A DNA stretch of 64,000 bases from Trypanosoma brucei (taxonomy: Eukaryota). Every line of letters starts with the position of its first letter. Positions within the stretch are counted from its first letter, which is position 1. Positions 6,357 through 52,793 of this stretch are shown here, piece by piece. The position numbers were made by a program, and so were the translations under genes. Under the pieces are notes generated by a model. The model was not told the origin of the DNA, did no database searches, and saw nothing but the letters and a program-made list of their open reading frames with translations. The stretch is taken from positions 1,376,001 to 1,440,000 of the forward strand of contig CP000067.1 of the NCBI GenBank assembly GCA_000002445.1, in the 5' to 3' direction.

Positions 6357-8174
6357 CTAGCGTCGCTCAATATCCTCGGTTACTTTTAAGCTTTGCCTCA
6401 CTACCGACTGCTCTAACCGGGTGGCTTCTAAATTCCGCTCCATCTCTTTTTGCTCGTGTGTGACCTCCGGCGATGAGGGGGCGCAGTCGCTTGCGTCGGA
6501 GCCGCCGGCTCGGCCGCGGGCACCGTGCGGTGGGCGCCATTCGGTGAGCGTTAGATTTGGCATCGTGTTGGGCTTGATGTTTGACCGGCCGAGAATCATA
6601 CGAATACATTCAACAAACCCTTGTACCACTGCCGGGTACGCTGCTGTCAGCTTCAGCAGTGAGTACACAGAATCTGACTGTCGAATGGCAAGTGACGCGA
6701 CTTCAACTATGCTTCCTGCGTGAGCCCCGACTGCGCGAACGCCTAGAAGCAGTTTCTGCCGGTCGTTTGTTACAATCACCTTACAAAATCCCTGTGCACC
6801 ACCCATTGCGATGGCACGGCTGAGATGGCTGTAGTCGTAACGCGCAACGATGTAACCGAACCCAAGAGCACGGCATTGTTCCTCGTTGAGTCCAACGCAA
6901 GCCACCTCCTCTTCGAGAAAGAGGATGGTGGAAAGGTTTGTGAGAAGAGAAGAATTAACCGGTCGCGCAGGTTTCTCCCCGTAAATGTGCTCAACAGCCC
7001 CTCGGCCTTGTGCCTCACCGAGGTTCACCAAACCCCGGTCAGCGGAAACATCACCAACAGCGTAAATGTGCTTGTAAGGGACACAACGACCAAAAGCATC
7101 CAGTGTAACCTGTCCGCCGGTGACCTTGCACGCAGTGTTCTCGAGGCCAAGGCCAGAGAGGTTTGGTGTGCGACCCAAAGACACCAGTGCTCGTTCTGCC
7201 TCATACGTCTCCACGCTATTTGCATCATTCCTATTATTCGTTGTGTTGTGTCGCACACTGTACACACATCCCCCAACATCGTCACTCTCCTCCCATGACT
7301 CTAGGTCAAACAGGGTACAGGTGTTGAGAATACGTACCCCCCGTCGCGTAAGATGCTCCTCGACAAAGTTTGCGATATCCTCGTCTTCCTTCGGAAGAAT
7401 CCGTTTGGCTTTGTCGATGATTGTCACTTCTGTGCGGCCAAAGTTGGCGTATATGCTGGCGAACTCACATCCCACTGCACCAGCTCCGATAATTACCAAG
7501 CTTGACGGGATGGGTAACTGCATGATGGTGTCCGTCGTCACGACTCGTCGGTGATCCGCTACAACGAATTCGTGTTGCCGTGGTACGGAGCCTGTAGCAA
7601 TAATGAAGTAATCAGCAGTAAGAACGTGATATTCATTTGCACCGGGGCTATGCACATCCAGTTCATGTGGTGAAGAAAACATAGCCCTTCCAAACACTGT
7701 TGTGACCCCGGCAGCCCGCAACAACTCAACAGTCTGAGTTTCCCGCGTTGCACTAACCTCTTGCAAGGTTTGTTGCACTCTTGATAGGTCCAGTTTCTGC
7801 TGAATTTCCCTCACCGTGTCGTCGTCGAAAACCCGCCGAGCTGACGCTCCGGAGAGAGAGGATACATACTTCGACATTTCCCACAACGTTTTTGACTGTA
7901 ATGCACCATCCCACAGATCGCAACCACCAATACGCTTTGCTTCTACAAGACAGACCCGTTTGTTGTAGTCCACAGCTCGTAGGGCTGCCGCAATGCCAGC
8001 GGGGCCGGCACCAATGACACAAACATCGAAACGAGGCAAATTTGAGGGGATATAACTGACGCAAGCTGATCTCAAGGAACATACCCGGCACAGCCGAATC
8101 ATCACTGTGGTAACGGTATTAATTACTAAAACTACGTGTGGGGGCGTTGTCACGTGAAATGTTGCAGAGATCAT
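6357..8174 (-). CDS. Dihydrolipoamide dehydrogenase-like FAD/NAD(P)-binding oxidoreductase, copy 1. Probably non-catalytic.
   Basis: The N-terminus has the FAD motif VCVIGAGPAGIAAALRA. A second Rossmann motif, VIIGAGAVGCEFAS, follows, and then HIYAVGDV. Where DLDH has GGTCLNVGCIPSK, this protein reads GGCDLWDGALQSK, so the C-x4-C redox pair is missing. Where DLDH has HAHPTLSE, it reads AAYPAVVQ, so the catalytic His is missing. The ORF-track start is GTG, so I moved the start to the first ATG (MISATF...). The N-terminal ~45 aa are rich in Arg, Ser and Cys and may be a mitochondrial presequence. Confidence 0.75.
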   Translation of the reverse strand: MISATFHVTTPPHVVLVINTVTTVMIRLCRVCSLRSACVSYIPSNLPRFDVCVIGAGPAGIAAALRAVDYNKRVCLVEAKRIGGCDLWDGALQSKTLWEMSKYVSSLSGASARRVFDDDTVREIQQKLDLSRVQQTLQEVSATRETQTVELLRAAGVTTVFGRAMFSSPHELDVHSPGANEYHVLTADYFIIATGSVPRQHEFVVADHRRVVTTDTIMQLPIPSSLVIIGAGAVGCEFASIYANFGRTEVTIIDKAKRILPKEDEDIANFVEEHLTRRGVRILNTCTLFDLESWEESDDVGGCVYSVRHNTTNNRNDANSVETYEAERALVSLGRTPNLSGLGLENTACKVTGGQVTLDAFGRCVPYKHIYAVGDVSADRGLVNLGEAQGRGAVEHIYGEKPARPVNSSLLTNLSTILFLEEEVACVGLNEEQCRALGFGYIVARYDYSHLSRAIAMGGAQGFCKVIVTNDRQKLLLGVRAVGAHAGSIVEVASLAIRQSDSVYSLLKLTAAYPAVVQGFVECIRMILGRSNIKPNTMPNLTLTEWRPPHGARGRAGGSDASDCAPSSPEVTHEQKEMERNLEATRLEQSVVRQSLKVTEDIERR

Positions 8175-8653
8175 AGGAAACACAGGAGGGCTGTTTATAC
8201 GGGAAAATTAAGGGGTGCTATTGATCAAACTAACGTTCTCTTCCTTCATACGCGATTACAACATATATTTCCCACCAGCTTTTTTAGCGTAAAAGGTACG
8301 TCCGGTTACTGGACTACACGTCACGCAAATAAACAGGGTCCAAGACGGAGGATCGACTCAAAGGAGAAAAATGATGTGTGATTTCATTGAGCGCTCCCTT
8401 GTTGTCTCATGAAAAGAGTAACTCTGGGAAGGGAGTGTACACGTCATTTTTTAAAAAAGGAATAAGTTGCGTTACGCGGAACGCGATTGGGCCATTCACC
8501 TTTCCAGTCAAGCGGACCCTCCTCGCGACCACTTGATGAACAGCAGCCATCCGCCCACCCGAAGGCAAACGGCAGCCCCACTCCAAGAACAGACATGCGT
8601 GTAAACTCCAGCCCACGTGTTCCCGACCTCTTCATGCCCGTCTGTTTTACCAC

Positions 8654-10360
8654 CTATTGTTTGCCACCGCCTTGAGCATTTCCCAGCGAACAATAGCCCC
8701 GACCTCGCTCACAGTCAGACGGAGTCCATGTATTGCAGACGAGACCGGGGAATGTACCAGGTTTTAACATGGATGTGCCCAATATGACGCGCAAGCACTC
8801 TAGAAATGCTTGTGAAACGGATGGGTACGCTGTGAGCATTTCACTCAGCTCGTATGCCGACTGTTTACGTTGAATCGCCGCGGTAGCGAACTCTACGATA
8901 GTACTTGCGCTCCATCCCACTACGTGAACGCCGAGAAGCGTCTTTTTACTGTCATTACTCGCGAGTATTTTTACAAACCCTTCGGTGTTGCTTGCAGCCA
9001 CGTTGCGACTGCAGAGTTCAAACCCATACTTGGCCACTACATACGATACATTTTTTGCTCTGCACTGCTTTTCGTTTTTTCCCACGGAAGCTACGGCACT
9101 GTCTAGGAATACAATTCTGGAATGGTCGGGGTGAAGCGGCTCCGTTATGTGTGAACTGTATATATGATCTACTGCCAACCGCCCCTTCGCTTCGCCCATA
9201 CTCACTGACCTGTCACGACCTGTTGCGTCTCCCACGGCGTAAATGTGTTTTTTGTTTACACACCTGCCAAATTCGTCTAGCACAAGTACCCCGTCGCGCA
9301 CTTCGCAGTTAGTATTACGTAGGCCCAGTCCGAAGTAATTCGGTCGGCGCCCAGTCACGGTGAGGCCCCGCTCCACTTCGTACGTCTGAAGTTCATGTGT
9401 CTTGCGGTGCATGATGGTATAGCGAACTCCATTCCCCGAGGTGCCGTCATTTGGTGTCTCCTGGCCATCACTCTCACTTTTGGTCAGTGATTGTAAGCTG
9501 TACAGCAAGCAATCTTGGTGCACCTCTACGCCATGCTTTTCCATTCCCTTCTGTATCGCTGCTGCCATATCATCATCTTCCTTCGGCATTATGCGCTCCT
9601 TCTTGTCTAGTAGAAACACCTTGGTCTTACCAAGCCTGCCGTATGTCATCGCGGATTCACTGCCAAGCGCGCCGCCACCCACCACTACCATGCTTTTTGG
9701 CAGCGGTAACGTCATAAGGTCATCGGAAGTCACCACGTTCTTGTGGTCCACGGGCACATGTGGCTGCGTGACAGGGGCAGAACCTGTGGCGATGATGAAA
9801 TAATCAGCCGTCACCGTTCGGTACTCCTTTGCCTCGCGGCTACTGACCTCTAACTCATGAGGGCTAGCAAAAGCGGCGCGACCGTAGAGTAACGCCACGT
9901 TAGAGGCGCTGAGGGCAGATAGTACCTGCTTTTCCCGCGTCTCGCTCACCTCTTGCAGTTTCTGCAGCATGCGTTCATCATCGAGTTCCATAAAATTTGA
10001 AATGGTAGTTCCATACACCCGTTCGGCGGAACTTCCCCTCGCGCGCCCCAAAAAGTTTGACATTTCCCACAACGTTTTCGACTGAAGTGTGCCATTCCAC
10101 AGATCGCAACCGCCAGTACGTTTTGCTTCTACAATTCAGACCCGTTTGTTGTAGTCCACAGCTCGTAGGGCTGCTGCAACGCCAGCGGGACCGGCGCCGA
10201 TGACACATACGTCGAAATGTGTTTTGCCGAGCGACTGCCAGTAGACGAGGTGTGGTCGCTGGTGCGTGAAGGAGAAACGTGTGTGCCGTAACACGGTAAT
10301 GATTCGTGCCAAAGTTACCTGATTTACACCCAGGCACCAAACCGAGCAGCGCGGGGTACC
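8654..10360 (-). pseudogene. Tandem second copy of the DLDH-like gene, disabled by an in-frame TGA and lacking any in-frame ATG upstream.
   Basis: The minus strand near 10190-10215 encodes FDVCVIGAGPAGVAAALRAVDYNKRV, followed by a TGA (the + strand reads tca at 10136-10138). Copy 1 has TGT CTT (Cys-Leu) at this position, so the stop is a point mutation. The frame then continues IVEAKRTGGCDLWNGTLQSKTLWEMS... and runs to 8654, covering ~470 aa that are homologous to copy 1 throughout. The upstream frame runs back to a TAG at about 10364 without meeting a Met. Confidence 0.7.
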
Positions 10361-11649
10361 AGACTATGCCAATCACCTCACCCGCAGCCTACATACTGGG
10401 ATTGGGCAATGACTAAAGAGGGAAAAAAATTGTTCATCACCCTCCTCTTCGTCCGTTTTTCAAGGGATGCAGTCACCTTCTGGTGTGTAGTCTCTCTACC
10501 GCCAGTAAAATGGAGTGTCGGGGATGAACTACAGAAGACAAAAAGCAAGAGAGAAAAAAGAAAACTATGTATGTGTGGGTTGTGCGAAAGGGTTAACAAT
10601 TTCAGCACCCGTCACATTGCCCCAAAACACCTGAAGTGACAAACAAAAGCATGTAGACGTTAAAGTTAGAAATAATGCATATGCACATGTTTGACGCTCA
10701 TTTAGTTCTCGGAAAACAAAAATAAAAAAATTGAGCGACGCTCAACCCTGAGCCCCCCCCCCAGTATTGCTTCTATCTGCATTAATGTGTCAGAATACTT
10801 GCAACCAAGGGAATCAACAATGAGGGGGACAACAAGAACAGGAGGGGAGTCGTGGGGAAACAAAGACATCTGACGGCATTTTTCTTTCTCCATTATGCAG
10901 TAAAAGTAACAAGCACATAAAACACAAACACTTGCAAAAAATTGTGGAAAATGGAGAGGTAGAATTAAAAGAAGGTGTTAGGACTCACCTACTTAGACCC
11001 CAATGAAAAACAAGTACTAAAGGTGCCGTGGGTAGATGGCCGACAGCAACATCGTGCGCGGGGCGAGCTACTACCACAAGCGTAATGCATAAATATGACT
11101 ATTTCGGCTTCACCATACCCCGATGAACAAAGCTATGTGTCGCATATTCACATCGTGCACTACGTGGTTACACATGAAATAAAACAAAAATGGGAGTCGT
11201 CCAAGGTGACTCAGGTAATCCTACCGCTGACGGAAACATACATACATATATGGAGAAGCATTAAACAACCCGCTAAAAAACGAAAATGGGAGGCAAACTT
11301 AAAGAGATGAAAAAATAATCACTTATTTGTGAAAACGGGGTCCCATTTGGGATGTAATAAAAATAAGGGAGGTGAGAAAACCACAACTAAAGTAAACACG
11401 GTGGCATTAAAGATAAAACCACGGAAGAACAATTAAACTGAGAAACTTGGCTCAAACAAGGGAGAGCAAAAAATACATATACGAAAAATAAGTGAGTGTT
11501 TGTGGACGGTAACCCCCGCAGCTTACATCCGGTGTGCTTTGCATAGGAAACTTCCCCTGTGCACGTATGAGGTTGGTCAACGCAGTAACGTTTTGCAGGC
11601 CCCCATGCTTTCTCTCGTTACCACTGAATTTATCAACACCACCAGTGTT

Positions 11650-24821: not shown

Positions 24822-27800
24822 TCATTTCCGGAACACGAACGTCGCCAGGAGACTTTTCTTGAGAACTTCCATTACCTCGCGAATGTTGTTGGCTTTTGTG
24901 CCGTTAACTTCCTCGAGGAACCACACGGGCTTTGACTGATACGTACGCATGAAGGGGTGCAAACGGCGTGGGTCTGAGAGCCTGTACATCGGTAAGGAAC
25001 CGATGGCCAGCGTTTTAACTGTCCAGTCGAACCGCAGGCCAATATCCCACGGAACATCCAAGCTTTGCCGTCGCACTACCAGTCGGTTCTCGTCAAACTT
25101 TTCGATCGCAACACTGCCGTTTGGAAAGATGAGAGCATTGGCAACCAAAGTTGCCTCCGACGGAGAGGAAACGGGTGTGACCGTGGGCAAACCGCTAACT
25201 CTACTCGTGGAAATGAGCGGCACGTCACCAACAGCTTGCGTGACAGCAGCTGCAGTCACATCACCTACCTTACAGACTGGTCTCTGGTTGCGGGCCATCA
25301 CCTGCTTTCTATATCTTTCTAACTTTTTCCTTGCTCTTTCATGTCGCTGCTGTTCAGATAAAGTGCATTCCTGGTTAGACGCAATCCGCGGAGGCCCGTC
25401 ACTGGCACGATTTCCTCCCAACCCCTCCTCTTCCACAACACATCCTTCTTCGTCGGAATTCTTGCGCCCAGCCCCACCCTCAGCCTTCATGCGCTCAGCC
25501 TCTTCCTCAGCCTTCATGCGCTCAGCCTCTTCTTCAGCCTTCATGCGCTTAACCTCTTCTTCAGCCTTCATGCGCTCAGCATCTTCTTCAGCCTTCATGC
25601 GCTCAGCCTCTTCCTCAGCCTTCATGCGCTCAGCCTCTTCCTCAGCCTTCATGCGCTTAACCTCTTCCTCAGCCTTCATGCGCTCAGCCTCTTCTTCAGC
25701 CTTCATGCGCTCAGCCTCTTCCTCAGCCTTCATGCGCTCAGCCTCTTCTTCAGCCTTCATGCGCTCAGCCTCTTCCTCAGCCTTCATGCGCTCAGCCTCT
25801 TCCTCAGCCTCCACGCGCTCAGCATCTTCTTCAGCCTTCATGCGCTCAGCCTCTTCTTCAGCCTTCATGCGCTCAGCCTCTTCTTCAGCCTTCATGCGCT
25901 CAGCATCTTCTTCAGCCTTCATGCGCTCAGCCTCTTCTTCAGCCTTCATGCGCTCAGCCTCTTCTTCAGCCTTCATGCGCTCAGCATCTTCTTCAGCCTT
26001 CATGCGCTCAGCATCTTCTTCAGCCTTCATGCGCTCAGCATCTTCTTCAGCCTTCATGCGCTCAGCCTCTTCCTTCTTTGTCCAAGCATCACTCTGAAGC
26101 TGGTTACGGGAAACCTTTTCTGCCATTCTGCGTGCACCTTTATTCGCTCGCTTCCGCAGAGTTTTTCGTGCTTCAGCAAGTTTTCGGGCTCTCTCAGCCT
26201 TCTTCCTGGCAGCTTCCTCCTCTGCTCTCTTCCTGGCAGCTTCCTCCTCAGCTTTCTTCCTGGCAGCTTCCTCCTCTGCTTTCTTTCTGGCAGCTTCCTC
26301 CTCTGCCTTCTTCCTGGCAGCTTCCTCCTCAGCCTTCTTCCTGGCAGCTTCCTCCTCTGCTTTCTTCCTGGCTGCTTCCTCCTCAGCCTTCTTCCTGGCA
26401 GCTTCCTCCTCTGCCTTCTTCCTGGCTGCTTCCTCCTCAGCCTTCTTCCTGGCAGCTTCCTCCTCAGCTCTCTTCCTGGCAGCTTCCTCCTCTGCTCTCT
26501 TCCTGGCTGCTTCCTCCTCTGCTTTCTTCCTGGCTGCTTCCTCCTCAGCCTTCTTCCTGGCAGCTTCCTCCTCTGCCTTCTTCCTGGCTGCTTCCTCCTC
26601 AGCCTTCTTCCTGGCAGCTTCCTCCTCAGCCTTCTTCCTGGCAGCTTCCTCCTCAGCTCTCTTCCTGGCAGCTTCCTCCTCAGCCTTCTTCCTGGCTGCT
26701 TCCTCCTCTGCTCTCTTCCTGGCTGCTTCCTCCTCAGCCTTCTTCCTGGCTGCTTCCTCCTCTGCTTTCTTCCTGGCAGCTTCCTCCTCAGCTTTCTTCC
26801 TGGCAGCTTCTTCGGCCTTCATGCGTGCCTTTCGTGCTTGAGCGCGTTTTCGCATCTTTTCAGCCTTCTTCCTGGCTGCTTCCTCCTCTGCTTTCTTCCT
26901 GGCAGCTTCCTCCTCTGCCTTCTTCCTGGCTGCTTCCTCCTCAGCTTTCTTCCTGGCAGCTTCCTCCTCTGCTCTCTTCCTGGCAACTTCCTCCTCTGCT
27001 TTCTTCCTGGCAGCTTCCTCCTCAGCCTTCTTCCTGGCTGCTTCCTCCTCAGCCTTCTTCCTGGCAGCTTCCTCCTCTGCTCTCTTCCTGGCAGCTTCCT
27101 CCTCTGCTCTCTTCCTGGCAGCTTCCTCCTCTGCCTTCTTCCTGGCAGCTTCCTCCTCTGCTCTCTTCCTGGCTGCTTCCTCCTCTGCTTTCTTCCTGGC
27201 AGCTTCTTCGGCCTTCATGCGTGCGTTTCGTGCTTGAGCGCGTTTTCGCATTTTTTCAGCTTTCTTCCTGGCAGCTTCCTCCTCTGCTTTCTTCCTGGCT
27301 GCTTCCTCCTCAGCTTTCTTCCTGGCAGCTTCCTCCTCTGCTTTCTTCCTGGCAGCTTCCTCCTCTGCTTTCTTCCTGGCAGCTTCCTCCTCAGCTTTCT
27401 TCCTGGCAGCTTCCTCCTCAGCTTTCTTCCTGGCTGCTTCCTCCTCAGCTTTCTTCCTGGCAGCTTCCTCCTCTGCTCTCTTCCTGGCTGCTTCCTCCTC
27501 AGCTTTCTTCCTGGCAGCTTCCTCCTCAGCTTTCTTCCTGGCTGCTTCCTCCTCAGCTTTCTTCCTGGCAGCTTCCTCCTCTGCTCTCTTCCTGGCAGCT
27601 TCCTCCTCTGCTTTCTTCCTGGCAGCTTCCTCCTCTGCTTTCTTCCTAGCTGCTTCTTCTGCTTTCTTCGCCGTGGTATCTTTCTCTCTCATTCGACTTC
27701 TCGCAGATAATTTCTTAGCGCGTTTCCTTTCCCCATCTGTTTTCGAGCGCTTTTGCCGAGTTTCCAACCTTTCCATCGAAGCCTTCTTCGTTGCTGTGTT

Positions 27801-28958
27801 AAACGCAGTTTCGTCTGTCACTATGTTCATGTTGTTTTTCTGAAATGTTTTTACATCGACAAATGCGGAGAGAATGGGTCTGCTCACGGAGCTGTTGACG
27901 CGCTTCTGTTTTAGCGCATCACCGTTGTTCCGAGCTCTTTCAACTTCACCGGGGGTTTGACACACAAAATCCTTGCTATATACGGGCCCATCCCCATAAT
28001 TTAATCCCTGTGAATGCATTTCGGGGACGTTTCGGGGAAGCACGCTGGAGATGGCGAGATGTGCGGGGGTCGTCACGCTTTGTTTGGTGTGATTGATGCC
28101 GTTTTTCGTGGAAGTCAACTCCACCACTGACGGAGGGAAAGTTGTGTCGCCTTTGGGCTGCCTGGATTCAAATCCTCGTGGGGCGGCATGCGCTTGATGC
28201 CTTGACCCGTTCAAATCGTAGTGGGTCTCAACCTGTGTTCCCTTCGGCCCTTCGACACAATGAGTTGCGCCGATATTTCCCGTAGCCATTGAGAGCGCTG
28301 TACCACCCCTCCAAAGCCGCTGCCGCTCCTCCAGCGCGCTTACAGTCATCTGGACCGCAGTGGTTTGTACGGGAGCAGCCGTCATAGTGGCTGTTTCTGA
28401 AATTCTGGTGTCCACATCAGGTTTTGGAAGTTGGCACTGCGTCCCCTGGTGTTGTTTCATGCTCTTGAATGCCCCCACATCTCCCTGCGCGGTCGGCTCC
28501 GTTTTTTTCTTTGCTTCTGCAACCAACTTGCTGGCATCATCAGAAACCTCTGTTGTGGGCTTACAGTGCATCCCTAGTTGCTGATGTCCCGTTGTCTTGG
28601 TGCCAACTGTCCCCCTTTCCTTATCAGTTACAGACCGTGACTTGGGGTCAATGCCATCGCTAAACTTCGCCACTCCGGGGCGATGTGCCTCGTCAAGCGA
28701 CTTCGGCGGCATCAATGCGGTTTCGAGTTTGAAAGCAGTTGAATTAACAGTCGGAGCAACTCCCGTCGACTGCACTTCTGGTGTGGCAGCGGTTGGGGGG
28801 TTGACGCCGAAGGGCGTGTTCTGATGCTCATACGTGGCCTTACGCCCCTCATGTTGGTGCTGCGCTACTGTCGGTGATAGCGAAGACTTTGGAGTCACAA
28901 GTTTCTGTGCGTGAGCAGCCGTATGGTGGTGGTGACGGCGATGGCGGCGAGCAGCCAT
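24822..28958 (-). CDS. Giant repetitive protein of about 1379 aa. It has a non-repetitive N-terminal domain, about 60 tandem AEEEAARKK 9-mers and about 25 AERMKAEE(E/D) 9-mers, and a ~200-aa C-terminal domain.
   Basis: Single long ORF on the PTU strand. The track start is GTG, so I trimmed to the ATG (MAARRHRRHHHH...). The 27-nt repeats are perfect and visible in the DNA at 25475-26075 and 26190-27660. The antisense ORFs across this region are repeat artefacts. Confidence 0.75.
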   Translation of the reverse strand: MAARRHRRHHHHTAAHAQKLVTPKSSLSPTVAQHQHEGRKATYEHQNTPFGVNPPTAATPEVQSTGVAPTVNSTAFKLETALMPPKSLDEAHRPGVAKFSDGIDPKSRSVTDKERGTVGTKTTGHQQLGMHCKPTTEVSDDASKLVAEAKKKTEPTAQGDVGAFKSMKQHQGTQCQLPKPDVDTRISETATMTAAPVQTTAVQMTVSALEERQRLWRGGTALSMATGNIGATHCVEGPKGTQVETHYDLNGSRHQAHAAPRGFESRQPKGDTTFPPSVVELTSTKNGINHTKQSVTTPAHLAISSVLPRNVPEMHSQGLNYGDGPVYSKDFVCQTPGEVERARNNGDALKQKRVNSSVSRPILSAFVDVKTFQKNNMNIVTDETAFNTATKKASMERLETRQKRSKTDGERKRAKKLSARSRMREKDTTAKKAEEAARKKAEEEAARKKAEEEAARKRAEEEAARKKAEEEAARKKAEEEAARKKAEEEAARKRAEEEAARKKAEEEAARKKAEEEAARKKAEEEAARKKAEEEAARKKAEEEAARKKAEEEAARKKAEEEAARKKAEKMRKRAQARNARMKAEEAARKKAEEEAARKRAEEEAARKKAEEEAARKRAEEEAARKRAEEEAARKKAEEEAARKKAEEEAARKKAEEEVARKRAEEEAARKKAEEEAARKKAEEEAARKKAEEEAARKKAEKMRKRAQARKARMKAEEAARKKAEEEAARKKAEEEAARKKAEEEAARKRAEEEAARKKAEEEAARKRAEEEAARKKAEEEAARKKAEEEAARKKAEEEAARKKAEEEAARKKAEEEAARKRAEEEAARKRAEEEAARKKAEEEAARKKAEEEAARKKAEEEAARKKAEEEAARKKAEEEAARKKAEEEAARKKAEEEAARKKAEEEAARKRAEEEAARKKAERARKLAEARKTLRKRANKGARRMAEKVSRNQLQSDAWTKKEEAERMKAEEDAERMKAEEDAERMKAEEDAERMKAEEEAERMKAEEEAERMKAEEDAERMKAEEEAERMKAEEEAERMKAEEDAERVEAEEEAERMKAEEEAERMKAEEEAERMKAEEEAERMKAEEEAERMKAEEEVKRMKAEEEAERMKAEEEAERMKAEEDAERMKAEEEVKRMKAEEEAERMKAEEEAERMKAEGGAGRKNSDEEGCVVEEEGLGGNRASDGPPRIASNQECTLSEQQRHERARKKLERYRKQVMARNQRPVCKVGDVTAAAVTQAVGDVPLISTSRVSGLPTVTPVSSPSEATLVANALIFPNGSVAIEKFDENRLVVRRQSLDVPWDIGLRFDWTVKTLAIGSLPMYRLSDPRRLHPFMRTYQSKPVWFLEEVNGTKANNIREVMEVLKKSLLATFVFRK
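25475..26075. repeat. Perfect 27-nt tandem repeats encoding AERMKAEE(E/D), in the C-terminal part of the same protein.
   Basis: Repeated cttcatgcgctcagc(c/a)tcttc(c/t)tcagc units. Confidence 0.9.
26190..27660. repeat. Perfect 27-nt tandem repeats encoding AEEEAARK(K/R). Two interrupters (KAEKMRKRAQARNARMKAEE) at about 26810-26870 and 27180-27250 split the run into three blocks.
   Basis: Visible directly in the sequence (gcagcttcctcctc(a/t)gc(c/t)(t/c)tcttcctg). Confidence 0.9.
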
Positions 28959-29977
28959 AAATTCTTGATTCAGGGATGGGATGAAAAGTGAATGGGAAAA
29001 GAGGGATTTCAACTTCAGAAAGTGAGAAGACGCCAAGGAAAGAAGAGGCCTCAAACCAGAGAGGTTAACAAGCGTCTCTAGGCAATGCCCCAACACACAA
29101 CCGCTGGACACCAGTGAATAAGGCGTTCAAAATAGACTTTAACAAACAGTTTAAACTGAAACTCATACATGCATACATTACATGCCAACTCTTGCAGCAA
29201 CCGAACGAACGGAATGACCTCTTGTATTCGGTGGCAGGCGAGTAACGTAGCATTTGGTAAAAGTTCGCTACAACAAACAAATTCACTGTGTGACTGCCCC
29301 TTCTTGTTTCTTTTCAACGTTGCGCATCGGCCTTCTTGACAAATACGTTGCTCACGGGCACACTCCTTCACATATAAGAGTTGAAGGAGAATATATGAAA
29401 GGGTACTGGACAGGAAATGGACACTGACAGGCATCACTTTTTGTGTAGTTTACCGGTGTAATAATTTCCATAGAGAAACCCACAACCCACGTTGCCCAAG
29501 TCTGTGCGGCGGGAAGAAATGCAGGGGGAAAGGAAGTAATAGCATACCTGCGTAAGCTATGCGTCAACGGTGCTTACTGACGTCGATCCCTTTGGCACGC
29601 GGCGGCGGCAGCTTCAACTTCAGATCCAAAAAATATGTTTGACAAAGGACGGTTTGAGTCACTTCCCTGTTGTTATAACATGTCACAGTTCAATAACCAG
29701 CAAAAGATGTTGACTTTTTTTTTGTTGTCCCCAGTAGCCTCAGCCGATACTTTAACCTTCAAACCCGGAAGATTGGTTCACCCCGCACGCTTCAGCACCC
29801 TCGCTTATTTCATTCCCACACAGCACAACCTCCCGTTCCGCAGCTGAGCAGTGCTGAAACACAAAGAAAACAAAAGGAAATGCACATTGTACTGATTGGT
29901 CGACGAAACGCACCAAAAACAAAAAACGGATCGGCAGGGAGTTAATAACTCTTGGAAGCGCTGTTTTGAAAAAAAAA

Positions 29978-42432: not shown

Positions 42433-44358
42433 TCAGGAGGAAGCGACGCGTTGGTAGATGGCCCGCATATCTGCTGCATCACGTTCCAACAATTCGCTTA
42501 GACCCTCCACACACTGTTGTATGCGCTCTGCAAATCGCGCCCAGTCCCTCAACAGGGCCTGATCTACACGGTTATTCCGCAGGGTACCAACACCTTCTGA
42601 AGGTGTGCAAATGGCGCCCTCTGATCCACCCACCGAATTCCTGCGAAGGAAAGATGTGATAGTTGAAGACTCCGCGTCCAGGAACGGCTGCAATTCTGTC
42701 AACGCCGTCTTGTACATACCTGGTGCCGAGAGTTGGGCACTAAGGGTACTAGCTATGCCGCCCATGCGACTTTCTTCTGCAAGTGGCAGACCCAACTGTC
42801 GCAGAGTCTCTACCTTCATTAACAACGAGTACCAACGGCGCTGAAGCATTGCTTGCTCCTGCTGCAGTTCACGATACTGCGCTGCATTAGCTTCATCAAG
42901 TTCACGGAAGTGGTCAGCTTTCGTTGCAAGCGAATCCACATGCCTTGACATCGCTTCCAGTATCTCTTTCTGCTTCTCTACGCGGTTCTTCAGCTCCTGC
43001 ATGAAGTGCACTCTCGTTGGGTACAAGTGGACGGGATCGGGGTTACGCTGTTGAGCCCGTAGGAGGTCCTCTTCCTTACATTCGCCACCAGCCGCCGCAT
43101 AAATAAGCCGTTCCCGCTCAACCGCCATGATGGATTGCCCAGGTGCACAGACATTGTAAAGAAAGGACCGAAAGCGGCAATTAGGATGCATGGCATTGTA
43201 AGCATGATCAATTTCCAACAGGTAGCGACCCACGGCACTTTGGCAATTGATAACCTGTTGTTGAGAGGCGCCTACCGCATTGGGGCGGGACTCAGCACCA
43301 GCCGCTGTTGAACCAAAAAATGAAACACTTGCGGTTCCAAACCCACCTGCAGTGTTCGGACCAGCTCCGAACCCCCCAGATCCCAAACCACCGGCGGTGT
43401 TGAACCCACTACCAAATCCTCCAGTTGTGGCGGTATTGGCTCCTGCACCAAATCCTCCAGTTGTGACAGTGTTGGCTCCTGCACCAAATCCTCCAGTTGT
43501 GGCGGTGTTGGCTCCTGCACCAAATCCTCCAGTTGTGGCGGTATTGGCTCCTGCACCAAATCCTCCAGTTGTGGCGGTGTTGGCTCCTGCACCAAATCCT
43601 CCAGTTGTGGCGGTATTGGCTCCTGCACCAAATCCTCCAGTTGTGACAGTGTTGGCTCCTGCACCAAATCCTCCAGTTGTGGCGGTGTTGGCTCCTGCAC
43701 CAAATCCTCCAGTTGTGACAGTGTTGGCTCCTGCACCAAATCCTCCAGTTGTGGCGGTATTGGCTCCTGCACCAAATCCTCCAGTTGTGGCGGTGTTGGC
43801 TCCTGCACCAAATCCTCCAGTTGTGACAGTGTTGGCTCCTGCACCAAATCCTCCAGTTGTGGCGGTGTTGGCTCCTGCACCAAATCCTCCAGTTGTGGCG
43901 GTGTTGGCTCCTGCACCAAATCCTCCAGTTGTGGCGGTATTGGCTCCTGCACCAAATCCTCCAGTTGTGGCGGTGTTGGCTCCTGCACCAAATCCTCCAG
44001 TTGTGGCGGTGTTGGCTCCTGCACCAAATCCTCCAGTTGTGGCGGTATTGGCTCCTGCACCAAATCCTCCAGTTGTGACAGTGTTGGCTCCTGCACCAAA
44101 TCCTCCAGTTGTGGCGGTGTTGGCTCCTGCACCAAATCCTCCAGTTGTGACAGTGTTGGCTCCTGCACCAAATCCTCCAGTTGTGGCGGTATTGGCTCCT
44201 GCACCAAATCCTCCAGTTGTGGCGGTGTTGGCTCCTGCACCAAATCCTCCAGTTGTGGCGGTGTTGAATCCACTACCGAACCCTCCTGCCGTTGAGCAGG
44301 CCGGAGCGCCAAAACCACCAGGCGCACCACGACCAAAGCCTGATCCCAGCACACTCAT
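42433..44358 (-). CDS. NUP62: FG-repeat nucleoporin with an Nsp1/Nup62-type C-terminal coiled-coil domain
   Basis: About 641 aa starting at the ATG MSVLGSGFGRG. Roughly 25 perfect 12-aa repeats GGFGAGANT(A/V)TT (36 nt) follow. The C-terminal ~270 aa is a heptad-rich domain (LLRAQQRNPDPV...ELKNRVEKQKEILEAMSRHVDSLATKADHFRELDE...). Its position next to a TLK matches my recollection that T. brucei TbNup62 sits beside TLK1, but I could not verify this. Confidence 0.8.
   Translation of the reverse strand: MSVLGSGFGRGAPGGFGAPACSTAGGFGSGFNTATTGGFGAGANTATTGGFGAGANTATTGGFGAGANTVTTGGFGAGANTATTGGFGAGANTVTTGGFGAGANTATTGGFGAGANTATTGGFGAGANTATTGGFGAGANTATTGGFGAGANTATTGGFGAGANTATTGGFGAGANTVTTGGFGAGANTATTGGFGAGANTATTGGFGAGANTVTTGGFGAGANTATTGGFGAGANTVTTGGFGAGANTATTGGFGAGANTATTGGFGAGANTATTGGFGAGANTATTGGFGAGANTVTTGGFGAGANTATTGGFGSGFNTAGGLGSGGFGAGPNTAGGFGTASVSFFGSTAAGAESRPNAVGASQQQVINCQSAVGRYLLEIDHAYNAMHPNCRFRSFLYNVCAPGQSIMAVERERLIYAAAGGECKEEDLLRAQQRNPDPVHLYPTRVHFMQELKNRVEKQKEILEAMSRHVDSLATKADHFRELDEANAAQYRELQQEQAMLQRRWYSLLMKVETLRQLGLPLAEESRMGGIASTLSAQLSAPGMYKTALTELQPFLDAESSTITSFLRRNSVGGSEGAICTPSEGVGTLRNNRVDQALLRDWARFAERIQQCVEGLSELLERDAADMRAIYQRVASS
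43380..44260. repeat. 36-nt tandem repeats, about 25 copies, encoding the FG motif GGFGAGANT(A/V)TT of the nucleoporin.
   Basis: Repeated ccaaatcctccagttgtg(g/a)c(g/a)gt(a/g)ttggctcctgca units. Long antisense ORFs at 43272-44354 (-) and 43280-44467 (+) are repeat artefacts. Confidence 0.9.
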
Positions 44359-44656
44359 AGACTTTCCTTTCCTTTTTTCCTTAACTTTAAACCATACAAA
44401 TAACAATAGAGAAAGAGTTCTTCACAGCGATAATAGCAATACCCATTTGATCCGTCGCATGATCTAGTATTCTAGGGAAAACACAAGTTTCTGCCACCTC
44501 ACAACTTTCATGCCAACTGAGAACAGCAAAATTCACAAATTTCGAACATAGGTAACATCGCAGTCGTCGCTTTCCTCCCGCCGTCTTTTTATCAGCTCTT
44601 GTATCCAGGAGTCGGGCTGTCATACGACACTAAAGTGGCCTTTCCTTGCTTCGCGC

Positions 44657-49329: not shown

Positions 49330-50478
49330 TCAATGCTGAAAACAAGGTAGCGTGCCGCTACCGGGATACAACCATCGAACCGCCGACGGTTTATCTCCTC
49401 CTTCCCCAACAGGAAAGATATCGAACAACTCATTGTAATGTTCCTCACTAACATGGTGTATCACAACAGATTTATTTGAAATGTATTTTCTAACGCTACC
49501 AGGACCCGCATTGTGAAACCGGCACGCTTTCGTATCCACACTTATTAGGTTTCTGTACACTACCTTTTCTCTCAGTATCATTCCAACCATCACATCTTCA
49601 TAGAACATGCCAAGATCAAGAAAGTCAAAATAGTCCCACATAGAAAAGGGCATGTTCACTAGACGCTCAAGAGGTTTATACGAAATGATGGCTTGTGCAG
49701 TGTCCCTGGAGAGAGTAATGCAATATCCGTTCACATATGTAAGTTGGTTACGCCGCCATATCCGGTTATAGTAGTTGTAACGACCCATATACAAACCATG
49801 ACGAGGCATTACACGAAGGTCCGCAAGGTATTTTGGAACACGAATAAATATGTCATCATCACCCTTCACAATGTAACTTACGTTAGGAAACATGTGAAGA
49901 GCAAATCGAAGCCACAAATATGTTTTCCGGCTCATCGCAACCTCAGCCTCAATTCCCCAGTTTCCATTCTCACCAATCTTCTTCCGTGTGGATGGAGAGA
50001 CATCATTTGTTGGTAGTGTAATAATGTCATGTGTACGTGCGGCCTCTTCCTTTAGTGAGTGTGAAATCAAATAACTGTTTGACTGATGTGGTGCGAGAAG
50101 ATATAATGGCAGGAGACTCCCACTAAAGTTGTTTGATCGTGTGGCCACGCCACTATACTTCCAGCATGTCTGTCGCTGCAAGTCACGCCGCCTGCTTCTC
50201 TCACTGTTGTCCACAGAAGGAATTCCAAGGACGGCTAGGAATCTTTGTGCCTTCCACACGGCAGCAACATTAGACGGAACGAACATCAAATATTCATCCT
50301 CGTCTATCGGTTGTGAAACTCCAGCCTGATTTTCATCTAAAAAAGTAGATACCACATGAATTCTATGTAAGTTGCAGCAGATAATCAAGAGTGACATCAC
50401 AAGTAGAAGTATCACTGCTATGTCTGCTGTACGTGGCCTCCTCCTCGCTTGTGTTGGTCGCATCTTCAGCGGTGACAT
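49330..50478 (-). CDS. UDP-Gal/UDP-GlcNAc-dependent glycosyltransferase (GT67/beta3GT-like), array copy 1, with a divergent C-terminus.
   Basis: This copy matches the array consensus from the ATG (MSPLKMRPTQARRRPRTADIAVILLLVMSLLIICC) through the DxD motif YIVKGDDDIFIRV and the EDVMVGMIL motif. The last ~70 aa differ (…ISVDTKACRFHNAGPGSVRKYISNKSVVIHHVSEEHYNELFDIFPVGEGGDKPSAVRWLYPGSGTLPCFQH). DNA identity to the other units breaks at about 49545. Confidence 0.8.
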   Translation of the reverse strand: MSPLKMRPTQARRRPRTADIAVILLLVMSLLIICCNLHRIHVVSTFLDENQAGVSQPIDEDEYLMFVPSNVAAVWKAQRFLAVLGIPSVDNSERSRRRDLQRQTCWKYSGVATRSNNFSGSLLPLYLLAPHQSNSYLISHSLKEEAARTHDIITLPTNDVSPSTRKKIGENGNWGIEAEVAMSRKTYLWLRFALHMFPNVSYIVKGDDDIFIRVPKYLADLRVMPRHGLYMGRYNYYNRIWRRNQLTYVNGYCITLSRDTAQAIISYKPLERLVNMPFSMWDYFDFLDLGMFYEDVMVGMILREKVVYRNLISVDTKACRFHNAGPGSVRKYISNKSVVIHHVSEEHYNELFDIFPVGEGGDKPSAVRWLYPGSGTLPCFQH

Positions 50479-51034
50479 GTCTACAAAGAAGTTATCGAGG
50501 GAAAAACAATTTAAATTGGCAAATGCGAGAATTCGCGCAGTCGTTAGCAACACAATTAGCTGACAAATTCATGTTCATCACAATTCAATGTAGACCGCTA
50601 TGAAAGAACTCATAAAGGTCGTATGAGGCATGAGGATATACGTCCACGAGGGAGACATTTGAAATCATGAATATCTCAACAGTTATTAAACTTTACAACT
50701 TAAGTAGGACATCCACTCCCAAACTAGGCAATATTTTAAAAGTTACATTTGGGGGAAAGGGACCGTTAATCACGGTTTCGAACGATACCCAAAAACTGTT
50801 CATAACCAAACCTCCCAGTTTTGACCGAAACGAAACGGCGTAACTGTCATGTGATCAACAAATGAGTTCCAAGGAAAAATAATCAACGAACGGTATAGTA
50901 TGCCGTCGGTTATTACACACAGACACACACACACAGAAAGTAACTAAAGTGTTTCAGGAATAGGAGTGACGCTAATACAATCCTAACAAACTATAGGGTG
51001 AGGGATCTCATAGTTCCCAAGCAACCTCAATAAT

Positions 51035-52237: not shown

Positions 52238-52793
52238 GTCTACAAAGAAGTTATCGAGGGAAAAACAATTTAAATTGGCAAATGCGAGAATTCGCGCAGT
52301 TGTTAGAAACACAATTAGCTGACAAATTCATGTTCATCACAATTCAATGTAGACCGCTATGAAAGAACTCATAAAGGTCGTATGAGGCATGAGGATATAC
52401 GTCCACGAGGGAGACATTTGAAATCATGAATATCTCAACAGTTATTAAACTTTACAACTTAAGTAGGACATCCACTCCCAAACTAGGCAATATTTTAAAA
52501 GTTACATTTGGGGGAAAGGGACCGTTAATCACGGTTTCGAACGATACCCAAAAACTGTTCATAACCAAACCTCCCAGTTTTGACCGAAACGAAACGGCGT
52601 AACTGTCATGTGATCAACAAATGAGTTCCAAGGAAAAATAATCAACGAACGGTATAGTATGCCGTCGGTTATTACACACAGACACACACACACAGAAAGT
52701 AACTAAAGTGTTTCAGGAATAGGAGTGACGCTAATACAATCCTAACAAACTATAGGGTGAGGGATCTCATAGTTCCCAAGCAACCTCAATAAT

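What the first reader, a model, noticed from the sequence alone, without database searches (positions are those of the whole stretch)
24822..28958. A 1379-aa protein whose central ~800 residues are perfect E/A/R/K 9-mers, predicted to form a very long single alpha-helix or rod
Over 2.2 kb the gene is built from two families of perfect 27-nt repeats: AEEEAARKK, about 60 copies, and AERMKAEEE, about 25 copies. Two 20-aa interrupters (KAEKMRKRAQARNARMKAEE) recur identically, giving the region a higher-order block structure. Sequences built this way, with alternating E and R/K spaced i to i+4, typically form stable single alpha-helix domains that act as rigid spacers. A helix of this length would span more than 100 nm. 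In trypanosomes, large charged repeat proteins are usually cytoskeletal components (flagellum attachment zone (FAZ), bilobe, subpellicular array) and immunodominant antigens. The DNA-level perfection means repeat number is likely polymorphic between alleles and strains. The non-repetitive N- and C-terminal domains (the C-terminal ~200 aa, …PVWFLEEVNGTKANNIREVMEVLKK) are candidate attachment modules.
Basis: partly seen in the sequence, partly recalled or inferred. Interest (0 to 1): 0.55.

Follow-up and report, generated by a model that had tools for sequence, protein, structure and literature searches.

The report
Long charged-helix tether with PDZ-like end
This trypanosome gene encodes a 1378-residue protein whose central 730 residues are near-identical charged 9-residue repeats predicted to form one very long helix, ending in a conserved PDZ-like binding domain; it belongs to an annotated but unstudied "kinetoplast-associated protein" family, so it is a real and tidy find but not a new kind of thing.

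Summary
The minus-strand ORF 24822-28958 encodes 1378 aa. Residues 433-1162 (730 aa, not about 800) hold 51 AEEEAARK[K/R] units and 22 AERMKAEE[E/D] units, not about 60 and 25. The DNA is not perfect (86% and 94% match). The two interrupters differ at one residue.

The spacer reading is supported by prediction. Hydrophobic residues are 1%, there is no Pro or Gly, no hydrophobic seam is possible, and AlphaFold2 draws one unbroken helix across aa 541-1159. The 33% alanine content leaves self-association open.

The gene is most likely the chromosome-4 paralogue (Tb927.4.5120 type) of T. brucei Tb927.8.7260, "kinetoplast-associated protein, putative". That assignment is inferred, not shown directly.

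Repeat units are 8, 9 or 10 aa in different Trypanosoma lineages. Syntenic Leishmaniinae orthologues have no such repeats. The array is therefore a lineage-specific, length-variable spacer between conserved ends.

The cytoskeletal (flagellum attachment zone) guess has no support. The family's name points to the kinetoplast or mitochondrion, but the location of this protein is unproven.

The parts
24822..28958 (-). Complete coding sequence, 1378 aa plus stop. 155 kDa, pI 8.8. No transmembrane segment (max Kyte-Doolittle 19-residue mean 1.17).
28961..29065 (-). Pyrimidine-rich 5' flank with AG dinucleotides just upstream of the first ATG. Candidate trans-splice acceptor region (inferred by eye only).
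28851..28958 (-). Arg/His-rich leader, aa 1-36, with no acidic residue (MAARRHRRHHHHTAAHAQKL...). The same kind of basic, acid-free start is seen in the chr-8 paralogue and in most Leishmaniinae orthologues. It could be an organelle-targeting or nucleic-acid-binding signal (inference).
27663..28850 (-). Rest of the N-terminal region, aa 37-432. For aa 1-432 as a whole: basic (pI 9.9, net +22), low complexity, no Pfam domain. No homologue was found among 5.8 billion proteins. Only 28% identity over 109 aa to the paralogue, around the motif VSALEE[RQ][QR]RL.
26199..27662 (-). Repeat family 1, aa 433-920. 51 units of AEEEAARK[K/R] in three blocks of 15, 13 and 23 units (20, 17 and 31 nm as helix). 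Each block opens with an 8-mer AEEAARKK. Net charge about 0 per block.
27213..27260 (-). Interrupter 1, aa 567-582, AEKMRKRAQARNARMK. Net +6. Predicted to stay helical.
26817..26864 (-). Interrupter 2, aa 699-714, AEKMRKRAQARKARMK. Net +7. Differs from interrupter 1 at one residue.
26067..26198 (-). Non-repeat basic linker, aa 921-964 (AERARKLAEARKTLRKRANKGARRMAEKVSRNQLQSDAWTKKEE). Net +9. Helical in the model, with the lowest pLDDT within the helix (about 57).
25473..26066 (-). Repeat family 2, aa 965-1162. 22 units of AERMKAEE[E/D]. Acidic (net -40, pI 4.5). 30 nm as helix.
25344..25472 (-). Gly/Glu/Ser-rich hinge, aa 1163-1205. No predicted structure (pLDDT below 50).
25284..25343 (-). Conserved basic helix, aa 1206-1225 (HERARKKLERYRKQVMARNQ). 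K, K, E, R, K and Q are invariant across Trypanosoma. A KKRIKKHAKLAA.RLK counterpart occurs in Leishmaniinae.
25212..25232 (-). Conserved short motif [VT]D[VI]PL[VI] (aa 1243-1249) inside a linker of otherwise low confidence.
24828..25145 (-). C-terminal domain, aa 1272-1377. Pfam DUF7759 (116.5 bits, cut-off 27). Predicted PDZ-like fold. The invariant W-D-[IV]-G-L-R-[FY] sits where PDZ domains carry the GLGF carboxylate-binding loop.

Best explanation
This is most likely the chromosome-4 paralogue (Tb927.4.5120 type) of the T. brucei-group gene pair Tb927.4.5120 / Tb927.8.7260. It belongs to the trypanosomatid DUF7759 family, which databases label 'kinetoplast(-DNA)-associated protein(-like)'.

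The protein is a modular tether, in this order:
- a basic, probably disordered N-terminal region of about 430 aa, starting with an Arg-rich, acid-free leader;
- a 730-aa charged helical spacer of the E/R/K single-alpha-helix type: three neutral AEEEAARKK blocks separated by short basic inserts, a basic linker, then an acidic AERMKAEEE block;
- a flexible hinge;
- a conserved basic helix;
- a PDZ-like C-terminal domain that probably binds a partner protein.

The spacer keeps the two ends apart. Its contour length is about 110 nm. As a semi-flexible chain it would span about 50 nm. Its length is set by repeat copy number.

What is shown here:
- the ORF and its repeat anatomy;
- DUF7759 membership;
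- synteny with orthologues.

What rests on prediction only:
- the PDZ-like fold of the C-terminal domain;
- the helical state of the repeats.

What is inferred:
- the helix is monomeric in solution;
- the spacer or tether function;
- the PDZ-like domain binds a partner;
- the subcellular site is at or near the kinetoplast or mitochondrion.
For: Identity and family:
- The C-terminal 215 aa are 100% identical to T. equiperdum TEOVI_000367000. They are 54-69% identical to proteins named kinetoplast(-DNA)-associated protein in T. equiperdum, T. congolense, T. grayi, T. rangeli and T. conorhini, and to a T. vivax protein annotated only as hypothetical.
- The 69% relative clusters with XP_847555.1. 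This is 1028 aa, 'kinetoplast-associated protein, putative [T. brucei TREU927]', on a 2.48-Mb contig.
- PMC2212663 lists Tb927.4.5120 / Tb927.8.7260 as the paralogue pair, with the chr-8 copy the shorter one.
- Neighbours fit the chr 4/8 duplicon: KH-Smr, Maf1, a kinase, a Nup54-like gene and a glycosyltransferase array.
- Pfam DUF7759 scores E=6e-34.

Synteny:
- The Leishmaniinae and T. rangeli loci carry DUF7759 gene, then a coiled-coil gene, then an ERGIC/ERV gene, in the same order and orientation as here. The T. vivax locus has the DUF7759 gene directly followed by ERGIC/ERV as called.
- The two neighbours in the Leishmaniinae locus match at E=2e-25 and 2e-167.

Helical spacer:
- AlphaFold2 gives one helix over aa 541-1159.
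- Designed AEEEKKK and AEEEKRK repeats are experimentally monomeric SAHs (PMC5347031).
- A strictly 8-, 9- or 10-periodic sequence has no Fourier component at 3.5-3.7 residues per turn, so no residue class can form a seam (direct inference; the measured moment is 0.013).

Spacer logic:
- Unit length is 9 aa here and 8 aa in Tb927.8.7260.
- It is 10 aa in T. rangeli and T. conorhini.
- T. vivax has only a degenerate E/R/K-rich stretch of about 95 aa.
- Leishmaniinae orthologues have an A/T/S/P-rich middle instead.
- The C-terminal module is conserved throughout.
- The same pattern is published for the kinetoplast-segregation spacer p197: conserved ends and a replaceable helical middle (PMC9546609).

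PDZ-like end:
- The model has pLDDT 70-92 over the domain.
Against: - No experiment on this protein was found. Tb927.4.5120 appears in only one paper's text, and neither paralogue ID was found in the TrypTag supplements that are held.
- The SAH call rests on my own heuristic scores and on a single-sequence AlphaFold2 run with only moderate confidence (mean pLDDT 69.6). AlphaFold2 cannot tell a monomer from an oligomer.
- Family 1 is 33% Ala. A designed AEEAKKA polypeptide (43% Ala) was helical but dimerised, and AAEAAKA oligomerised (PMC5347031).
- Family 2 carries like-charge i+3/i+4 pairs and net -40.
- Circular dichroism of a recombinant repeat fragment of Leishmania LinKAP, a protein with the same database name, gave only 26% helix (PMC12108087). 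I could not establish that LinKAP is a true relative.
- The 'kinetoplast' label is an annotation transferred by similarity, not a localisation of this protein. LinKAP localised throughout the mitochondrion, not specifically to kDNA.
- The exact protein and its N-terminal 432 aa are absent from the protein collections searched. The assignment to Tb927.4.5120 is therefore by elimination and synteny, not by direct match.
Confidence: 0.55

Rival explanations
1. The repeat region is a helical rod that self-associates, as a dimer or bundle held by alanine patches and inter-chain salt bridges, rather than a monomeric single helix. The protein would then be a filament-forming structural element.
For: - Family 1 is 33% Ala.
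- Designed AEEAKKA repeats dimerised and AAEAAKA repeats oligomerised (PMC5347031).
- p197's helical repeats are thought to form multi-helix filaments (PMC9546609).
- The basic interrupters and linker (+6, +7, +9) and the acidic family 2 (-40) could pair between chains.
Against: - There is no heptad or hendecad seam. Best a/d occupancy by hydrophobic residues is 2% in family 1 and 14% in family 2. With Ala included it is only 36%, which equals the composition.
- The helical moment is 0.013 against 0.198 for a heptad control.
- Periods of 8, 9 and 10 aa in different lineages cannot place any residue class on one helix face.
Confidence: 0.15
2. The repeat region is a largely disordered polyampholyte, acting as an entropic spacer or phase-separating region. 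The helix is a predictor artefact.
For: - CD of the Leishmania LinKAP repeat fragment gave 26% helix and 41% 'other' (PMC12108087).
- The pLDDT of the predicted helix is only 57-83.
- The repeat-only search hits low-complexity linkers in unrelated proteins from all domains of life.
Against: - The 730 residues hold almost no Pro or Gly (one Gly in the linker, the Gly run closing family 2), they are rich in the strongest helix formers, and charge spacing is ideal.
- The closest designed sequences (AEEEKRK, AEEEKKK) are highly helical in solution.
The syntenic Leishmaniinae orthologues found here have no such repeats, so LinKAP may be a different gene.
Confidence: 0.15
3. The protein is chiefly a nucleic-acid (kDNA or RNA) binding protein. 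The basic N-terminal region, the basic inserts and the basic pre-PDZ helix contact DNA, and the charged helix itself acts as a DNA-binding ruler.
For: - The family name is 'kinetoplast DNA-associated protein'.
- The N-terminal region has net +22, the interrupters and linker +6 to +9, and the C-terminal 216 aa have pI 9.6.
- A K/E/R-rich single alpha-helix in CAF-1 binds DNA and acts as a spacer (PMC10335832 abstract).
- An akinetoplastic T. evansi strain carries a truncating deletion in the paralogue Tb927.8.7260 (PMC4288722).
Against: - No HMG box or other DNA-binding domain was found.
- Family 1 is net neutral and family 2 strongly acidic.
- The name is transferred annotation.
- This reading does not exclude the tether model.
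Confidence: 0.1
4. The array matters mainly as an immunodominant repetitive B-cell antigen or decoy. Copy number would be driven by host immune pressure rather than by any mechanical role.
For: - LinKAP was discovered as an immunodominant antigen (PMC12108087).
- Tandem charged repeats are classic trypanosomatid antigens (general knowledge).
Against: - There is no signal peptide or membrane segment, so the protein is intracellular.
- Variation between units is almost all synonymous, with a conserved charge pattern.
- Conservation of E/R/K character across 8-, 9- and 10-aa units points to a structural constraint.
- Antigenicity can be a by-product.
Confidence: 0.05

Closest known systems
Tb927.8.7260 (XP_847555.1), 'kinetoplast-associated protein, putative', T. 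brucei chromosome 8
   Same: - Same architecture: Arg-rich start, divergent N-terminal region, A/E/R/K repeat array, basic helix and DUF7759 C-terminal domain.
- 69% identity over the C-terminal region.
- Paralogue from the chr 4/8 duplication.
   Different: - 1028 aa against 1378 aa.
- The repeat unit is the 8-mer AEEAARKK rather than the 9-mer.
- It has no acidic AERMKAEEE family.
- The N-terminal regions are barely alignable (28% over 109 aa).
E/R/K-type single alpha-helix (SAH) domains, such as the myosin-6 and myosin-10 SAHs and the designed AEEEKKK / AEEEKRK polypeptides
   Same: - An AEEE...RKK charge pattern with dense i to i+3 and i to i+4 opposite-charge pairs.
- No hydrophobic seam.
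- A helix that links two functional ends (PMC5347031).
   Different: - The period is 9 aa, not 7.
- Two extra Ala per unit give 33% Ala.
- The length of 620-730 residues compares with the 40 to about 200 residues stated as typical.
- The monomeric state is untested. Ala-richer designs self-associated.
p197 (Tb927.10.15750), spacer of the tripartite attachment complex (TAC) that links the basal body to kDNA
   Same: - A trypanosome protein with conserved end domains and a long alpha-helical tandem-repeat middle.
- The middle is not conserved between species and sets a distance (PMC9546609).
- Repeats are often collapsed in assemblies.
   Different: - There is no sequence relationship.
- p197 has about 26 repeats of 175 aa and is about 660 kDa.
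- Its location and spacer role are shown by experiment, whereas here they are inferred.
PDZ domains
   Same: - The invariant WD[IV]GLRF lies at the position of the GLGF loop and strand beta-2.
   Different: - No Pfam PDZ model is matched.
- Identity to PDZ domains is 6-19%.
- An extra N-terminal strand is present.
- Ligand binding is untested.
LinKAP (LINF_270007500), Leishmania 'kinetoplast-associated protein-like protein'
   Same: - Same database name.
- Repetitive, charged (it gives TPH/TolA-type hits) and antigenic.
- Reported to have Trypanosoma relatives (PMC12108087).
   Different: - 660 aa, on chromosome 27.
- The syntenic Leishmaniinae orthologues of the window gene are 1095-1317 aa, A/T/S/P-rich and repeat-free.
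- LinKAP may therefore share only low-complexity similarity.
- It localised throughout the mitochondrion, and its repeat fragment was 26% helical by CD.
Classical kinetoplast-associated proteins KAP1-4 and KAP6 (small basic histone-like or HMG-box kDNA-condensing proteins)
   Same: Only the name 'kinetoplast-associated', plus basic segments.
   Different: - No HMG box or other shared domain.
- About ten times larger.
- Built around a long charged helix.

Membership tests
DUF7759 (PF24945) family of trypanosomatid 'kinetoplast-associated protein(-like)' proteins | C-terminal DUF7759 domain scoring above Pfam's gathering threshold | tested here: met
   116.5 bits against a cut-off of 27, E=6e-34, covering profile positions 3-109 of 109.
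DUF7759 (PF24945) family of trypanosomatid 'kinetoplast-associated protein(-like)' proteins | Positional orthology (conserved gene order) with other family members | tested here: met
   The Leishmaniinae and T. rangeli loci carry DUF7759 gene, coiled-coil gene, then ERGIC/ERV gene in the same order and orientation. T. vivax has DUF7759 directly followed by ERGIC/ERV. The two Leishmaniinae neighbours match at E=2e-25 and 2e-167.
Tb927.4.5120 (chromosome-4 paralogue) identity | Direct sequence match to the annotated Tb927.4.5120 product | not testable with these tools
   The exact protein and its N-terminal region are absent from the collections searched. The assignment is by elimination: the chr-8 copy is a different sequence, and only two paralogues are listed in PMC2212663.
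E/R/K single alpha-helix (SAH) domain | High E+K+R content with dense opposite-charge i to i+3 and i to i+4 pairs and few like-charge pairs | tested here: met
   Family 1 is 31% E/D and 34% K/R. It has 0.51 opposite-charge i+4 pairs per residue and 0.01 like-charge pairs. The score is 0.56 against 0.10 for a shuffle. Family 2 is weaker (0.33 i+4 pairs, 0.10 like-charge). This is my own heuristic, not Waggawagga or SCAN4CSAH.
E/R/K single alpha-helix (SAH) domain | No hydrophobic seam (distinguishes it from a coiled coil) | tested here: met
   Hydrophobic a/d occupancy is 2% (family 1) and 14% (family 2). The helical moment is 0.013 against 0.198 for a heptad control. A 9-periodic sequence has no component at 3.5-3.7 residues per turn.
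E/R/K single alpha-helix (SAH) domain | Predicted continuous alpha-helix | tested here: met
   AlphaFold2, single sequence: helix over segment residues 2-620, which is aa 541-1159, at pLDDT 57-83.
E/R/K single alpha-helix (SAH) domain | Monomeric, highly helical in solution, with a non-cooperative melt (CD, AUC) | not testable with these tools
   This needs recombinant protein. Caveats are the 33% Ala content and the dimerisation of designed AEEAKKA.
Coiled coil | Heptad (or hendecad) repeat with hydrophobic a/d positions | tested here: not met
   The repeat periods are 9 aa here and 8 or 10 aa in relatives.
PDZ domain | PDZ fold | tested here: met
   [not shown]
PDZ domain | Sequence match to PDZ profile models | tested here: not met
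   No PDZ family was reported by Pfam at E up to 1.
PDZ domain | GLGF-type carboxylate-binding loop and peptide binding | tested here: inconclusive
   The invariant WD[IV]GLRF aligns with the beta1-beta2 loop and strand beta-2 of the model. Binding is untested.
Classical KAPs (KAP1-4, KAP6) | Small basic protein with an HMG box or histone H1-like composition | tested here: not met
   1378 aa with no HMG-box hit.
   No such homologue was found. Localisation cannot be tested here.

The most novel reading that the evidence does not exclude
The DUF7759 proteins could be PDZ-anchored single-helix molecular tethers of the kinetoplast or mitochondrial genome-maintenance apparatus. They would be analogous to p197 but built from the longest natural E/R/K single helix yet described (about 620-730 residues). 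Their reach would be tuned by copy number of 8-, 9- or 10-aa units. The chr-4 and chr-8 paralogues would then provide two different lengths, and would lose their function when kDNA is lost, as in T. evansi.
Probability: 0.15. Interest if true: 0.7.

Novelty: new member of a known kind. Interest (0 to 1): 0.4.

Why it matters
If the repeat array is a genuine monomeric single alpha-helix, it would be three to four times longer than the 40 to about 200 residues quoted as typical for such domains. It would also be a natural example of length tuning by very short repeat units. Together with a PDZ-like end domain that is conserved across trypanosomatids, this gives a concrete, testable model for an unstudied protein family that carries a 'kinetoplast-associated' label without direct evidence: a tether whose middle can be swapped and whose ends carry the specificity. 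It is also a practical warning. The gene is broken or collapsed in several public assemblies, and similarity through the repeats is compositional, so annotation transferred through them is unreliable.

Tried and rejected
1. The N-terminal 432 aa were searched against 5.8 billion proteins. No hit reached E<=0.001.
2. A repeat-only search gave 206 hits, all to low-complexity A/E/K/R linkers of unrelated proteins such as TolA-like and SH3 proteins, from bacteria to fungi. This is uninformative for homology.
3. PDB sequence searches with the C-terminal region and with both repeat families gave nothing useful.
4. Literature searches for the repeat peptide and for DUF7759 found no papers. The two gene IDs occur in only two papers, and neither was found in the TrypTag supplements that are held. 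The MitoTag paper is not held.
5. I tried to link LinKAP to this gene through its paper and supplement. No sequence or gene list was available. I therefore do not transfer its localisation or CD data with any confidence.
6. The Jackson 2007 description of a 'Hint domain', a GPI signal and a membrane protein is not supported here. There is no such Pfam hit and no hydrophobic segment.
7. The AlphaFold-database fold library was unavailable.
8. The original 1990 T. cruzi KAP paper (PMID 1694571) is not held. That this paper is the source of the family name is my recollection only.
9. The upstream GTG-extended ORF (to 29111) was rejected as the start. The first ATG is preceded by a pyrimidine tract and AG dinucleotides.

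Full report
**Observation.**
The minus strand of the window carries one open frame from the first ATG at 28958 to the stop at 24822. It encodes 1378 aa. A pyrimidine-rich tract with AG dinucleotides lies just upstream of that ATG, which fits a trypanosomatid trans-splice acceptor (inference by eye).

Tandem Repeats Finder reports two 27-nt arrays:
- 54.9 copies at 86% match, at 26193-27656.
- 22.7 copies at 94% match, at 25459-26072.

A unit-by-unit parse gives the following.
- Family 1 has 51 units. These are 48 nine-mers AEEE[A/V]ARK[K/R] and three eight-mers AEEAARKK.
- The units sit in blocks of 15, 13 and 23, and an eight-mer opens each block.
- Two 16-aa basic inserts separate the blocks: AEKMRKRAQAR[N/K]ARMK.
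- A 44-aa basic non-repeat linker follows (aa 921-964).
- Family 2 has 22 units of AERMKAEE[E/D].

The repeat region is aa 433-1162, which is 730 aa. There are 15 and 7 distinct DNA variants. The interrupters differ at 4 of 78 nt and one residue.

A more interesting point is that variation among the 48 nine-mers is concentrated at three synonymous third-codon positions, at intermediate frequencies, plus a K/R site. The peptide, not the DNA, is what is nearly invariant. The long + strand ORFs over the array are antisense read-through of the repeats.

**What the gene is.**
The C-terminal 106 residues match Pfam DUF7759 at E=6e-34.

The C-terminal 215 aa found only seven proteins among 5.8 billion, all from Trypanosoma.
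- One is a 100% identical fragment from T. equiperdum.
- Five, at 58-69% identity, are named 'kinetoplast-associated' or 'kinetoplast DNA-associated' protein.
- The T. vivax hit (54%) is annotated only as hypothetical.

The 69% relative clusters with XP_847555.1. This is a 1028-aa 'kinetoplast-associated protein, putative' of T. brucei TREU927 on a 2.48-Mb contig. It corresponds to Tb927.8.7260.

PMC2212663 lists Tb927.4.5120 and Tb927.8.7260 as a paralogue pair from the chromosome 4/8 duplication, with the chr-8 copy 'substantially shortened'. The window's neighbours fit that duplicon: KH-Smr, Maf1, a kinase, a Nup54-type nucleoporin and an array of glycosyltransferase genes. I therefore assign the window gene to the chromosome-4 type (Tb927.4.5120).

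This assignment is by elimination. The exact protein and its N-terminal 432 aa are absent from the collections I could search.

**The family beyond Trypanosoma.**
A profile of the C-terminal region, scored against 1.84 billion representatives, found only 20 proteins. The full-length ones are 985-1317 aa. They come from Lotmaria, Porcisia, Leptomonas and Leishmania martiniquensis, with Phytomonas shorter at 553 aa. Several are again named 'kinetoplast-associated protein-like protein'.

One of them lies in a locus with the same downstream genes, in the same order, as the window.
- The coiled-coil neighbour is 31% identical (E=2e-25).
- The ERGIC/ERV neighbour is 53% identical (E=2e-167).

These are therefore positional orthologues. 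Their middles are A/T/S/P-rich (28-33% T+S+P, 10-13% each of acidic and basic residues) and have no E/A/R/K repeats. Two things are conserved across all of them:
- the C-terminal module, made of a basic helix, a [VT]D[VI]PLV motif and the DUF7759 domain;
- in most of them, a basic, acid-free N-terminal start.

Within Trypanosoma the charged array is present but built differently.
- 9-aa units here.
- 8-aa AEEAARKK units in Tb927.8.7260.
- 10-aa AEEEAER[KR]R[AV] units in T. rangeli and T. conorhini.
- Only a degenerate E/R/K-rich stretch of about 95 aa in T. vivax.

The array is thus a Trypanosoma feature that has been amplified independently, with different unit lengths, between conserved ends.

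**The repeat region as structure.**
Family 1 is 31% E/D, 34% K/R and 33% Ala. It has 1% hydrophobic residues and no Pro or Gly.
- Opposite-charge i to i+4 pairs occur about 0.5 times per residue, and like-charge pairs almost never.
- In the best heptad register, only 2% of a/d positions are hydrophobic in family 1 and 14% in family 2.
- The helical hydrophobic moment, scanned from 95 to 110 degrees per residue, peaks at 0.013, against 0.198 for a heptad control.

There is also a simple general argument. A sequence that is periodic in 8, 9 or 10 residues has no Fourier component at 3.5-3.7 residues per turn. No residue class can therefore line up along one face of an alpha-helix. That three lineages use three such unit lengths fits a requirement for charge pattern and helicity, not for an interface.

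AlphaFold2 on aa 540-1215, run without an alignment, gives a single helix over aa 541-1159. The helix passes through both interrupters and the 44-aa linker. Block-mean pLDDT along the helix runs from about 57 to 83, lowest at the linker. It ends at the Gly-rich AEGGAGRK, after which confidence falls below 50.

Experimentally, designed AEEEKKK and AEEEKRK polypeptides are monomeric single alpha-helices (PMC5347031). The window's unit is AEEE-AA-RKK.

Two caveats matter.
- In the same study the Ala-richer AEEAKKA was helical but dimerised, and AAEAAKA oligomerised. That was in heptad register, which is not the case here.
- Family 2 is strongly acidic (net -40) and has some like-charge contacts.

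I therefore rate 'helical' as likely and 'monomeric single helix' as probable but unproven.

As a continuous helix the region is 110 nm long. Natural SAHs are quoted at 40 to about 200 residues, with a persistence length of about 15 nm. This would then be a semi-flexible chain with an rms end-to-end distance near 53 nm, not a rigid 100-nm rod.

**The C-terminal module.**
AlphaFold2 with the seven-sequence alignment gives pLDDT 70-92 for the last 100 or so residues. The order of elements is beta-beta-beta-beta-alpha-beta-alpha-beta.

**Where it acts.**
I found no experiment on this protein. The family name appears to be transferred annotation. From memory, it goes back to a 1990 T. cruzi 'KAP' paper (PMID 1694571), which is cited in PMC2700280 but is not readable here.

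Three pieces of indirect evidence exist.
- An akinetoplastic T. evansi strain carries a truncating internal deletion in Tb927.8.7260. The authors flagged this as interesting (PMC4288722).
- Leishmania LinKAP has the same database name. It is repetitive and antigenic and localises throughout the mitochondrion rather than to kDNA. Its repeat fragment was only 26% helical by CD in water (PMC12108087).
- LinKAP is, however, 660 aa and on chromosome 27. The syntenic orthologues I recovered are twice that size and repeat-free, so LinKAP may be related only through composition.

The repeat-only search shows how easily such similarity arises. It hit TolA-like and other linkers across all domains of life. 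There is no membrane segment, and nothing links the protein to the flagellum attachment zone or other cytoskeletal structures.

**Mechanism proposed.**
The protein is a tether. An N-terminal basic region and a C-terminal PDZ-like domain each bind something. A charged helical spacer holds them tens of nanometres apart, and its length is set by repeat number.

The evolutionary pattern is conserved ends and a replaceable middle. The same pattern is shown experimentally for p197, the helical-repeat spacer of the kinetoplast segregation machinery. In p197 the repeat domain could be replaced by a non-repetitive helical region, and its length set a cellular distance (PMC9546609).

Status of each step:
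- Shown here: the gene, its repeat anatomy, family membership and synteny.
- From prediction only: the PDZ-like fold and the helical state of the repeats.
- Inferred: monomeric state, spacer function, partner binding and location.

**Verdict.**
The feature is real, and the reading as a charged helical spacer with an attachment domain is largely right in kind. The details were overstated and the cytoskeletal context is unsupported.

It is an unstudied member of an already annotated family, combining two known building blocks: an E/R/K-type helix and a PDZ-like domain. Its main points of interest are the extreme predicted helix length, the 8-, 9- and 10-residue unit variation between lineages, and the testable analogy to p197.

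Noticed in passing
window 43411-44266 (inside ORF 42433-44406, minus strand): A 36-nt tandem repeat with 23.8 copies at 95% match lies inside a protein with a Nup54 domain. It is probably the FG-repeat region of a nucleoporin.
   Followed up: no
window 49330-60843, minus strand: Five head-to-tail 425-aa ORFs with a 1759-nt period (51035-59348) give a weak galactosyltransferase-family hit. Shorter or diverged copies flank them at 49330-50553 and 59830-60843. This fits the UDP-GlcNAc-dependent glycosyltransferase genes listed for the chr 4/8 duplicon in PMC2212663.
   Followed up: partly
window 6357-8183 and 8654-10072, minus strand: Two adjacent paralogous pyridine-nucleotide disulphide oxidoreductase genes (Pyr_redox_2 plus dimerisation domain).
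   Followed up: no
window 62001-64000: GC content drops to 0.31 at the end of the window, against 0.47 overall.
   Followed up: no
window 24949-26097, 26078-27649, 26838-27710, plus strand: Long ORFs of 290-523 aa lie antisense to the repeat array. They encode Ser/Ala/Phe- or Leu/Pro/Ser-rich nonsense repeats and are artefacts of the stop-free repeat. The array also gives the window's strongest strand skews (GC skew -0.39, AT skew -0.66 at 26-28 kb).
   Followed up: yes
L004 (T. rangeli GCA_003719475.1) 11-2551; L003 (T. vivax GCA_021307395.1) 8397-10810: The orthologues are mis-modelled in public assemblies. The T. rangeli gene has a run of N inside the repeat array and was called as two genes. 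The T. vivax gene is split into two overlapping frames (8397-9911 and 9881-10810). Short 'kinetoplast DNA-associated protein' entries of 169-288 aa are C-terminal fragments.
   Followed up: partly
P0014 / P0016 (hits of the C-terminal profile): Two 'unnamed protein products' from a bird assembly (Coccothraustes coccothraustes) carry 18-25 tandem copies of a unit that matches profile positions 38-87 (…ALTFP.G.VT…). E-values are 1e-26 to 1e-33. This is probably chance similarity multiplied by copy number. It is unexplained.
   Followed up: no
P0018, P0020, P0022, P0024 (weaker hits of the C-terminal profile): Four weaker hits of the C-terminal profile are 302-1029 aa. Two clusters were named: one T. 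brucei (XP_846155.1, hypothetical) and one T. vivax (hypothetical). They end in a related PDZ-like module (WG[FL]xLE…) and seem to contain further internal copies. The window protein's weak Pfam DUF7762 match suggests these belong to that family, but they were not scanned against Pfam.
   Followed up: no
Leishmaniinae orthologues P0008-P0012, P0015: In place of charged repeats, their middles carry one to three dispersed copies of a short basic motif [KR][KR]..FF..[LM].[DE] (for example KKRKFFAELDD), often preceded by RRATISR.PKK. The motif is absent from the two T. brucei paralogues.
   Followed up: partly
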